This document shows, piece by piece, positions 9,251-10,665 of a stretch of 64,000 nt of DNA. Numbering within the stretch: position 1 is the stretch's first letter; every line of letters starts with the position of its first letter. A program made the position numbers and the translations under genes. The DNA is taken from NCBI GenBank assembly GCA_963514005.1, contig OY740782.1:150350001-150414000 (forward strand). The letters are read 5' to 3'. This stretch comes from Raja brachyura. Lineage: Eukaryota. Below the pieces are notes generated by a model. The model was not told where the DNA came from and did not search any database. It was given only the letters and a program-made list of their open reading frames with translations.

Positions 9251-10665
9251 AATGGAAATTGGTGAAATGATGTGCAATGTTGGAAACAACATTTTCTCTG
9301 CTATTTGAATTACAGAACAGGTATCCCACTAATCCGTGAACAGAGTGGGAATTGAAATCAATGGTTCAAAGGAGGGTTTGACTGACGTTCACAATTACAT
9401 TTGCATTTATTTATTAAAATTAAATAATTTAGGTAGGTTTCGCTTGGGCCATTGAGAGTGCCCATGGCTAAACCTTTGATTTGGAGGAAGAGGGAAGAGT
9501 TTTTGTTTTATAAATGGTTCAGAGATTATCCGATAAAATCACAGAAAATGGAAGGATAAAGGGTTTTCCATGTCGGGCTCCCGAACATAATTTGGGAGAA
9601 GACAAAATAAACAATCACGAACTTCTTCATGAAATTTGCCCTTAAATGTGTCCATCGAACGAAACCAACTAAGGCGGTGGATGGGATTGAAATGGTAGCT
9701 CTGTTATTTACCCACAAATAACACACTTAAAATGTCACTTTTTAAACTGTATTTTGTTGCCCCATCACTCACGAAAATATACCGATCATTTGTATGCCGA
9801 CAGTAATTGCAAGTAAATTCTGAAAAGCAAACCAGCCGACAAGAACATTACATTCATACCAGATTAAAAACATGTATGAGATTGCATTGGTAAGGATTAC
9901 AAAGAACTCTCTCAATATAATATCTGAATTAATAAAGGTTATGTACCACAACTTCTGGAAACTAAATGTAACATTTAAATTGTAAGAACATGTTAATACT
10001 CCGTAATTAAATAAATTGGTACAGGTTTTAAATGTTTGTCTGTGTGCACCATTGCCTTAATGAATTCAATAATAATCAATTAAAATTAATGTTTATGCAA
10101 TGACGCTCAGTTCAGTTTCCAGCATCTTTAAAACGAGTTTACGTTTACAATGTCATCGGCACTGAAGAACGAATGATTAACATTGTATCACTGGCCGATA
10201 GGAAACGAATAAAAAAGATACCAATTATAAATTACAACCTGCAATCTATAAAAAATATCCGAGTTTGCTTCGTGACTTCAACAGGAAAGGGCATTAATTC
10301 ATATAGAGGAAGTCTACTTTTAATGGTGAAAATGCACAATGTTGCTAAATCAATGTTTTAATTAAATAAATGCAAATGTAAATTTGAACGTCACTCAAAC
10401 CCTCCTTTAAGCCATCGAGTTCAATTCCCACTCTGTTCAAGGATTAATAGGATACCCTGCTTTATAATTAAAATTAAGATAGCGGAGTCAGGGGATATGG
10501 GGAGAAGGCAGGTACGGGCTACTGATTGGGGATGATCAGCCATGATCACATTGAATGTCGGTGCTGGCTCGAAGGGCCGAATGGCCTCCTCCTGCACCTA
10601 TTGTCTATTGTCTAAAATAGCAGAGAACATTTTGTTTCCAACATTCCATTTCTCAATTTTTCATT
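9251..10665. repeat. Diverged inverted repeat in the J-CH1 intron (arms ~9251-9432 and ~10345-10665), each arm with an octamer
   Basis: Reverse complement of the left arm aligns to the right arm by eye; ATTTGCAT 9399-9406 and ATGCAAAT 10370-10377. Confidence 0.88.
10475..10612 (+). mobile_element. 5'-truncated CR1 LINE tail with TAAAAT target-site duplication
   Basis: GYGEKAGTGY end plus 3'UTR and (CTATTGT)n tail; TAAAAT at 10469-10474 and 10613-10618; interrupts the inverted-repeat arm. Confidence 0.9.

What the first reader, a model, noticed from the sequence alone, without database searches (positions are those of the whole stretch)
9251..10665. Octamer-bearing quasi-palindrome in the JH-CH1 intron: candidate intronic enhancer
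Seen: two ~170-bp arms in inverted orientation around ~900 bp of AT-rich spacer. Both arms keep a perfect octamer (9399-9406, 10370-10377) and a TGACGT CRE half-site (9383-9388, 10388-10393) despite many substitutions nearby. A PU-box AGAGGAAGT (10305-10313) and E-boxes (CAGCTG ~10824, CACCTG ~11363) are close. The VH promoter has no octamer. Known: mammalian E-mu lies in this intron and uses Oct/Ets/E-box sites flanked by AT-rich MARs, and the mammalian IgH 3'RR is quasi-palindromic. Inference: a duplicated, inverted B-cell enhancer module that may supply the Oct input the promoter lacks.
Basis: partly seen in the sequence, partly recalled or inferred. Interest (0 to 1): 0.75.

Follow-up and report, generated by a model that had tools for sequence, protein, structure and literature searches.

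The report
Old inverted repeat in skate IgM
A real but ageing inverted repeat sits in the J–C intron of a skate antibody (IgM) gene; it is most likely a decaying mobile-element or duplication relic, although it carries the only perfect octamer motifs of this gene cluster and so remains a cheap-to-test candidate for a heavy-chain enhancer in a cartilaginous fish.

Summary
The inverted repeat is real. It lies in the JH–CH1 intron of a skate-type IgM cluster on the minus strand. The left arm (9273-9419) pairs with a right arm (10356-10474 plus 10619-10648) that a 139-nt CR1-type LINE tail has split; 130 of 149 columns are identical. All cited motifs are at the cited places, and the promoter lacks an octamer.

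The key argument fails. At 87% identity the octamer survives in both arms by chance with P=0.33, and both motifs with P=0.135. The two copies are one event. No E2A-type box lies within 440 nt of either octamer. Two other low-copy inverted-repeat elements in the window look like DNA transposons, and one is a full Tc1.

Against a plain transposon: there is no transposase trace and no other copy in 64 kb. An arm of this composition holds an octamer in 2% of shuffles, and the right arm adds a catfish-type variant octamer and a PU box.

Best reading: neutrally decaying inverted-repeat relic (0.5). A real motif-level enhancer stays open (0.3); a functional palindrome is unlikely (0.07). Genome-wide copy number and conservation could not be tested.

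The parts
9253..9430 (.). Left arm of the inverted repeat (well-aligned core 9273-9419; ragged extension to ~9253 and ~9430)
9383..9388 (+). TGACGT (CRE/ATF half-site-like), left copy
9399..9406 (-). Consensus octamer, left copy
9431..10344 (.). Single-copy spacer, 34% GC, no transposase remnant, no RNA family
10305..10313 (+). PU-box-like AGAGGAAGT, single copy, in the spacer 63 nt from the right octamer
10324..10359 (+). Weak direct similarity (28 of 38 columns) to the outer end of the left arm; hint that each arm may be a small MITE with its own ends
   Evidence: p~0.02 in two scoring schemes, 0.11 in a third, uncorrected for 7 comparisons
10345..10474 (.). Right arm, inner part (core 10356-10474)
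10370..10383 (+). Consensus octamer (10370-10377) overlapping a catfish-type variant octamer (10376-10383); the variant is absent from the left arm
   Evidence: variant described in PMC1800861
10388..10393 (-). TGACGT, right copy
10475..10613 (+). 3' tail of a CR1-type LINE inserted into the right arm after the duplication, flanked by a 5-6-nt target-site duplication
   Evidence: RT motifs in the bodies of longer copies, (clade name by recalled motifs)
10614..10663 (.). Right arm, outer part (core 10619-10648)
8787..9248 (-). Penelope-like reverse-transcriptase fragment abutting the outer end of the left arm; left border approximate, read by eye
   Evidence: Atlas hit with PF26215 at 0.95 (a lead); no Pfam hit; second copy at 29592-29773
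11527..11983 (-). Second, longer LINE 3' fragment in the same intron; forms its own inverted pair with the 10475-10613 tail
12175..12222 (-). JH segment (WGGG motif), 23-nt RSS upstream
8122..8418 (-). C-mu 1 exon, open
12618..12629 (-). The only D segment found, with 12-nt-spacer RSS on both sides (5' nonamer degenerate, read by eye)
12940..13247 (-). VH exon, open, with Leu (13131-13129) in place of the conserved framework-2 Trp; 22-nt RSS
13469..13895 (-). VH promoter region up to an N gap: three GC boxes, no octamer at up to 1 mismatch, no TGACG
930..6695 (-). C-mu 2 (6695-6381), C-mu 3 (5509-5207), C-mu 4 plus secretory tail (4664-4273), TM1 (1200-1073), TM2 (938-930)

Best explanation
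One old event placed a ~150-175-nt sequence twice, head to head, around ~0.9 kb of AT-rich DNA in the J-C intron, giving a unit of ~1.27 kb before later insertions. Most likely it is the relic of a non-autonomous terminal-inverted-repeat DNA transposon; a local inverted duplication of intron DNA is the alternative. Since then both arms have drifted apart evenly (JC distance 0.13-0.16). A LINE tail jumped into the right arm, and a Penelope-like fragment came to abut or clip the left end. The paired octamer and TGACGT are two copies of one ancestral sequence, kept because little time has passed and not because they were selected. The symmetry has no function. Shown: the arms, their divergence, the order (duplication before LINE insertion) and the absence of motif-specific constraint. 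Inferred: transposon origin and lack of function.
For: Differences are spread as at random. P(octamer intact)=0.33, P(both motifs intact)=0.135 and P(longest run >=20)=0.78. The motif-bearing 52 columns have 3 differences against 16 in the other 97 (Fisher p=0.07), but some 52-column window is that clean in 43% of permutations. A retroelement insertion inside the right arm was tolerated, and three retroelement fragments occupy the intron. Of 29 short-range inverted pairs in the window, 4 have single-copy arms, forming 3 structures: this one, a nested GC-rich MITE-like one at 26779-27360, and a complete Tc1 element at 60545-62161 with 217-nt arms and a 1189-nt interior. That rate puts one in a 3.75-kb intron with P~0.12 (rests on 2 elements). 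The Tc1 has nearly the same arm and spacer sizes as the finding. An exact octamer somewhere in the unique intron is expected with P=0.34. Of five B-cell motif classes not picked after viewing the arm, each arm holds 0, and the whole element holds 2 against 2.1 expected. G-U-compatible changes are not enriched on the pre-mRNA strand (6 of 8, p=0.14).
Against: There is no transposase trace: best tblastn E=0.36 with the window's own Tc1, and no Pfam family at cut-off in 19 of 26 stop-free stretches overlapping the element. No TA-CAG termini or target duplication can be seen, though the left end is clipped. There is no further copy of arm or spacer in 64 kb. Translated-arm searches found nothing, whereas the same trick with the Tc1 arm gave 4 hits; this control is weak. 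The arm holds an exact octamer in only 2.2% of shuffles, and octamer plus TGACGT in 0.07%. Octamer plus TGACGT plus Ets core occurred in 0 of 4000 simulated introns (motifs chosen post hoc).
Confidence: 0.5

Rival explanations
1. The arm contains a real B-cell enhancer core (Oct, CRE/ATF and, on the J-proximal side, PU.1 within ~90 nt, 10305-10393). It supplies the Oct input that the octamer-less, GC-box promoter lacks. It was copied once in inverted orientation, by local duplication or as an exapted transposon end. Function rests on the motifs, not on the symmetry, and the left copy may be redundant.
For: The arms hold the only exact octamers in 1-13895. P=0.022 for an octamer in the arm and 0.0007 with TGACGT. 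The right copy also carries the variant octamer that is functional in the catfish enhancer (PMC1800861 passages). Of 1247 tiles, 4 reach five motif classes and 3 of them lie on the arms. The position matches mammalian E-mu. Shark IgH lacks the promoter octamer. No transposase and no other copy in the window. The LINE landed ~80 nt outside the motifs.
Against: No excess conservation of the motifs. Seven of the 12 panel classes were picked after seeing the arm, and the other five score 0 in both arms. No E2A-type box within 440 nt. The teleost enhancer lies 3' of C-mu, not in this intron. An island 31 kb upstream (44649-44943) is as motif-rich and is the only place in the window with two octamers plus an E2A box in 300 nt. 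The V exon lacks its conserved Trp, so selection on this cluster may be relaxed.
Confidence: 0.3
2. The two arms are two separate insertions, in opposite orientation, of one short (~200-nt) low-copy MITE or SINE-like element; the spacer is native intron.
For: Weak similarity between the outer end of the left arm and the sequence just inside the right arm's inner end (28 of 38 columns, p~0.02 uncorrected), as if the arm had its own inverted ends. Of 29 short-range inverted pairs in the window, 24 arise this way from multi-copy repeats, one pair in this very intron.
Against: The similarity is not robust (p=0.11 in the third scoring scheme; not seen for the left inner end). There is no third copy in 64 kb, which makes two hits 0.9 kb apart unlikely. 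No tRNA-like or Rfam match.
Confidence: 0.11
3. The symmetry itself works, like the mammalian 3'RR palindrome or as a stem-loop in the transcribed intron. It would help recruit AID or focus the inter-cluster 'switching' known in sharks.
For: The pre-mRNA folds into a long arm-to-arm stem with the LINE tail looped out (expected of any inverted repeat, no shuffles available). Breaking the mouse palindrome lowers SHM and AID recruitment (PMC4757795 passages). Sharks join V and C regions of different clusters without switch regions (PMC4279169 passages).
Against: The arms are only 87% identical and interrupted, with no sign of homogenisation (mouse hs3a/hs3b are 97% identical). No significant G-U bias. 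AGCT occurs at 0.7 per kb against 2.75 per kb in the rest of the window. No tandem array in the element. Wrong position and scale for a 3'RR.
Confidence: 0.07
4. Assembly artefact (a mis-joined, inverted read).
For: The window has four N gaps.
Against: The arms differ at 13% of sites, and one carries a LINE insertion with a target-site duplication. The nearest gap is over 3 kb away.
Confidence: 0.02

Closest known systems
Tc1/mariner elements with long terminal inverted repeats and their non-autonomous derivatives (in-window example 60545-62161)
   Same: Two ~150-220-nt inverted arms around ~0.9-1.2 kb, single copy within the window, in a repeat-rich genome.
   Different: No transposase remnant, no recognisable TA-flanked ends, arms 87% rather than 94% identical, no similarity to the window's Tc1 arms.
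Mammalian IgH intronic enhancer E-mu
   Same: In the JH-C-mu intron; holds a consensus octamer and an Ets/PU-like site; AT-rich surroundings.
   Different: E-mu has a single octamer outside its core (PMC1800861) and relies on E-boxes and Ets sites (recalled). Here there is no E2A-type box within 440 nt, the octamer is duplicated in inverted form, and activity is untested.
Channel catfish E-mu3' enhancer
   Same: The right arm carries the same variant octamer overlapping a consensus one.
   Different: Catfish core = two variant octamers plus a mu-E5 site, lying 3' of C-mu. Here there is no E-box, and the position is 5' of C-mu.
Mammalian IgH 3' regulatory region quasi-palindrome
   Same: Inverted copies of a motif-bearing segment bounding a spacer in an IgH locus.
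   Different: The 3'RR is ~25 kb, lies 3' of the C genes, has arms 97% identical and a central enhancer, and its architecture is kept across mammals (PMC4757795). This element is 1.4 kb, intronic, 87% identical, interrupted, and its conservation is unknown.

Membership tests
TIR DNA transposon (Tc1/mariner-like or non-autonomous derivative) | Inverted repeats bounding the element | tested here: met
TIR DNA transposon (Tc1/mariner-like or non-autonomous derivative) | Defined termini with target-site duplication | tested here: inconclusive
   Outer ends ragged; the left end abuts a Penelope-like fragment and homology does not resume beyond it
TIR DNA transposon (Tc1/mariner-like or non-autonomous derivative) | Transposase or its remnant between the arms (required for autonomous members only) | tested here: not met
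   tblastn best E=0.36; Pfam negative for 19 of 26 stretches, the control Tc1 gives E=1.5e-25
TIR DNA transposon (Tc1/mariner-like or non-autonomous derivative) | Dispersed copies at unrelated loci | not testable with these tools
   No eukaryotic DNA collection; none in 64 kb; indirect protein searches negative with a weak control
Mammalian E-mu-type intronic enhancer | Position in the JH-C-mu intron | tested here: met
Mammalian E-mu-type intronic enhancer | Octamer | tested here: met
   expected somewhere in the unique intron with P=0.34
Mammalian E-mu-type intronic enhancer | E-protein boxes in the core (recalled feature) | tested here: not met
   No CASCTG in 9251-10665; nearest 448-869 nt away
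Mammalian E-mu-type intronic enhancer | Ets/PU.1 site in the core (recalled feature) | tested here: inconclusive
   One PU box 63 nt from the right octamer; the nearest [AG]GGAA[GA]T is 901 nt from the left one
Mammalian E-mu-type intronic enhancer | Flanking matrix attachment regions | tested here: inconclusive
   Spacer 66% AT, lies between and not outside the arms; same as the D-J spacer; binding not testable
Mammalian E-mu-type intronic enhancer | B-cell-specific enhancer activity and cross-species conservation | not testable with these tools
   No chromatin data, no elasmobranch genomic DNA; the scan of prokaryotic genomes gave only a chance hit
Teleost E-mu3' enhancer | Two octamers plus a mu-E5-type box in the core | tested here: not met
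   Two overlapping octamers at 10370-10383 but no E2A box in 300 nt; only 44649-44783 meets it
Teleost E-mu3' enhancer | Position immediately 3' of the mu gene | tested here: not met
   The element is 5' of C-mu 1
IgH 3'RR quasi-palindrome | Position 3' of the constant genes, ~25 kb scale | tested here: not met
IgH 3'RR quasi-palindrome | Near-identical inverted enhancer copies | tested here: not met
   87% and interrupted, against 97%
IgH 3'RR quasi-palindrome | Architecture conserved across species | not testable with these tools
   No comparative DNA
Ig switch region | Tandem repeats rich in AGCT/WGCW | tested here: not met
   AGCT 0.7 per kb vs 2.75 per kb; WGCW 13 vs 17 per kb; no tandem array in 9251-10665

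The most novel reading that the evidence does not exclude
The arm is the intronic IgH enhancer core of cartilaginous fishes (Oct, CRE/ATF, PU.1), perhaps exapted from a transposon end and shared by skate IgM clusters. It would supply the octamer input that their VH promoters lack. It would place an E-mu-like element in the J-C intron at the base of jawed vertebrates and make the teleost 3' position derived. The inverted duplication would be a small convergent parallel to the mammalian 3'RR.
Probability: 0.15. Interest if true: 0.75.

Novelty: new member of a known kind. Interest (0 to 1): 0.35.

Why it matters
Shark IgH genes lack the promoter octamer (PMC2435157), and each small cluster must carry its own control elements. 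No paper describing an elasmobranch IgH enhancer came up in ten library searches (listings only; most subscription literature and all supplements unseen). If the arm is the enhancer, it would show where cluster-autonomous activation is encoded and whether the intronic position of E-mu is ancestral. If it is a transposon relic, as is more likely, it is ordinary. One genome-wide BLAST and one alignment of sister clusters would separate the two, so the cost of checking is low.

Tried and rejected
Motif retention as evidence of selection: rejected by permutation and by the window-scan correction.

A third, older copy of the arm near 11430-11526, next to JH, in the D-J or V-D spacers, the promoter, other introns or 3' of TM: none significant in the 22 region-by-strand tests other than the two on the right arm, lowest p=0.07. 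A shared 12-mer near JH was significant in only one of three scoring schemes.

Homology continuing beyond the Penelope-like fragment, or between the two halves of the spacer: not found. Transposase remnants. Structured RNA, tRNA-derived SINE head or hammerhead: 2 Rfam matches at E>1 in 8400-14000, 0 at gathering score in the window, 0 tRNA. Internal direct repeats of the IR/DR type: none in the arm, one weak pair in the Tc1 control, so uninformative.

Copies of the arm through spurious ORFs in protein sets: 0 hits, control 4 hits. Only two of six frames were tried, so this is weak. Elasmobranch DNA as contamination in prokaryotic genomes: 1 of 142 candidate stretches passed, a 31-residue bacterial match, not used. 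The linker of the Amblyraja gene model matches nothing in the window (best E=2.4).

My 12-class motif panel ranked the arms top, but 7 classes were picked after seeing them, so I discount that result. A pre-specified E-mu motif list could not be obtained from a paper (one search found none). The primary shark switch paper was not held. PMC2275904 had no full text, and PMC5192425 and PMC12227049 contain no mention of 'enhancer'.

Full report
Context. The window holds one immunoglobulin heavy-chain cluster on the minus strand: leader (ATG 13468), VH 13247-12940, one D 12629-12618, JH 12222-12175, C1 8418-8122, C2 6695-6381, C3 5509-5207, C4 with secretory tail 4664-4273, TM1 1200-1073 and TM2 938-930. 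The C4 exon's best matches among solved structures are mu chains. Its nearest named protein is an Amblyraja radiata model made of two fused mu constant regions, 82-90% identical exon by exon, ahead of shark (68-69%) and chimaera (52-57%) IgM. So this is a skate-type IgM cluster, and 9251-10665 lies in its 3756-nt JH-C1 intron. Half of the window is covered by repeats.

The observation. The inverted repeat is real: 9303-9419 against 10474-10356 at 86.6%, E=2e-33, and 9273-9306 against 10648-10615. The alignment score is 154 against at most 33 in 200 shuffles. The 428 nt upstream of the ATG, up to an N gap, hold no octamer even with one mismatch, but three GC boxes. Longer copies carry reverse-transcriptase motifs that I recognise from memory as CR1-type. 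The duplication therefore predates this insertion. A reverse-transcriptase fragment that looks Penelope-like (Atlas lead; no Pfam hit) abuts the outer end of the left arm, and homology does not resume beyond it. Without the insert the unit is about 1267 nt. The JC distance between the arms is 0.13-0.16.

Is the motif retention more than chance? No. In the 149 core columns 19 differ (17 substitutions: 8 transitions, 9 transversions). Placing them at random leaves the octamer intact in 33% of trials and both motifs in 13.5%. The longest identical run lies outside both motifs and is unremarkable (P=0.78). The 52 motif-bearing columns are cleaner than the rest (3 of 52 against 16 of 97, Fisher p=0.07), but some window that clean appears in 43% of permutations. 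The two octamers and two TGACGT are thus one observation each. The E-boxes are 454 and about 990 nt from the right octamer and outside the element. The spacer's AT content equals that of the D-J spacer.

What favours a transposon relic. Of 29 inverted pairs less than 5 kb apart, 24 are pairs of multi-copy repeats and one has a single-copy and a two-copy arm. The other 4 have single-copy arms, forming three structures: this one, a nested GC-rich MITE-like unit at 26779-27360, and a complete Tc1 element at 60545-62161 with 217-nt arms at 94% around 1189 nt that encode a frameshifted transposase. The Tc1 has almost the geometry of the finding. From these two elements, an intron of this size would hold such a structure with P~0.12, and an exact octamer somewhere in its unique part with P=0.34. 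Three retroelement fragments sit in this intron, one inside an arm.

What goes against a plain transposon. There is no transposase trace (19 of 26 stop-free stretches scanned), no clear termini and no further copy in 64 kb. Translating the arm in two frames and searching protein sets gave nothing, while the Tc1 arm gave 4 hits. This argues only against a widespread young family. There is a weak hint that each arm has its own inverted ends.

What favours an enhancer. The arms hold the only exact octamers in positions 1-13895. Shuffled arms contain an octamer in 2.2% of cases and octamer plus TGACGT in 0.07%. The right copy reads as a consensus octamer overlapping the variant that is functional in the catfish enhancer (PMC1800861, passages), with a PU box 63 nt away; the triple occurred in 0 of 4000 simulated introns. 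These motifs were chosen after seeing the sequence. My 12-class panel of recalled motifs put 3 of the 4 best of 1247 tiles on the arms. But 7 classes were picked post hoc; the other 5 score 0 in each arm and 2 in the whole element against 2.1 expected. A unique island at 44649-44943, 31 kb upstream, reaches the same score. It has two octamers, an E2A box, a PU core and a kappa-B-like site, and it alone meets the catfish-core definition. A tile that rich appeared in 7 of 40 shuffled windows, so that island too may be chance. The V exon has Leu in place of the framework-2 Trp seen in the three IgM proteins compared, so the cluster may be under relaxed selection; all C exons are open.

Weighing. 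A rough comparison of priors is my inference, not a computation from data. A chance inverted element that happens to hold an octamer (about 0.12 x 0.02) and an octamer-bearing enhancer that happens to have been duplicated in inversion are of similar order. The extra motifs push towards function; the lack of constraint, the missing E-boxes, the tolerated insertion and the Tc1 look-alike push away. I put a neutral relic of one paired element at 0.5, two inverted short-element insertions at 0.11, a motif-level enhancer at 0.3, a functional palindrome at 0.07 and an artefact at 0.02. The pre-mRNA can fold arm to arm, but there is no significant G-U bias, no AGCT enrichment and no tandem array.

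Comparison with known systems. It shares position and octamer with E-mu but lacks core E-boxes (the E-box and Ets make-up of E-mu is recalled). It shares the variant octamer with catfish E-mu3' but not its position or mu-E5 site. It differs from the 3'RR in place, scale and arm identity (PMC4757795, passages). It is not filed as a member of any of these. It meets the inverted-repeat criterion of TIR elements, fails the transposase test, and the copy-number test could not be run.

Literature seen. Passages only of PMC2435157, PMC4279169, PMC12227049, PMC1800861, PMC3308330 and PMC4757795; a term search with no hits in PMC5192425; PMC2275904 had no full text. Ten searches (listings) showed no description of an elasmobranch IgH enhancer or of this repeat. 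Most primary shark and skate Ig papers are in subscription journals and were not searchable, and no supplements were read, so prior description cannot be excluded.

Left unchecked: genome-wide copy number, conservation across clusters and species, expression, chromatin and activity.

Verdict. A real, oldish, interrupted inverted repeat. The stated evidence for selection does not hold, a transposon-like relic is the likeliest reading, and a genuine enhancer core remains a minority but easily testable possibility. Interest 0.35.

Noticed in passing
window 44649-44943: Single-copy island between LINEs, 31 kb upstream of VH: consensus octamer (44649), variant octamer (44752), CAGCTG (44778), PU core (44817), kappa-B-like site (44933) and C/EBP-like sites. 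It is the only 300-nt stretch with two octamers plus an E2A box. A tile this rich arose in 7 of 40 shuffled windows. A second enhancer candidate, or a measure of chance.
   Followed up: partly
window 13131-13129: The VH exon encodes Leu in place of the conserved framework-2 Trp; the frame is open and both Cys are present. The cluster may be non-functional or atypical.
   Followed up: partly
window 12945-12618: Only one D (12/12 RSS) lies between V and J, and V carries a few extra bases before a 22-nt RSS. Probably a germline-joined VD-D-J cluster; PMC3308330 says about half of elasmobranch loci are partly or fully joined. The likeness of the extra bases to a shark D1 end is recalled and was not confirmed.
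   Followed up: partly
window 60545-62161: Complete Tc1-like transposon with 217-nt terminal repeats at 94% and a frameshifted transposase, inserted into a retroelement.
   Followed up: yes
window 26779-27360: GC-rich nested inverted repeat (73-nt outer and 99-nt inner arms), single copy in the window, MITE-like.
   Followed up: partly
window 1073-1071: The TM1 exon ends at a GC rather than GT splice donor.
   Followed up: no
P0014: A protein 68% identical to the skate C-mu 4 exon is labelled Aeromonas veronii on a 742-nt contig; probably fish sequence contaminating a bacterial assembly.
   Followed up: no
P0005: The Amblyraja radiata model LOC116974745 fuses two mu constant regions that are 95% identical to each other, implying neighbouring, recently duplicated IgM clusters well suited for an intron comparison.
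   Followed up: partly
window 11517-11522: A third TGACGT in the intron, right at the edge of the second LINE fragment; no homology to the arm around it.
   Followed up: yes
window 17991-17998: An exact octamer in unique sequence 4.5 kb upstream of VH, beyond the N gap and next to a pyrimidine tract; not examined further.
   Followed up: no
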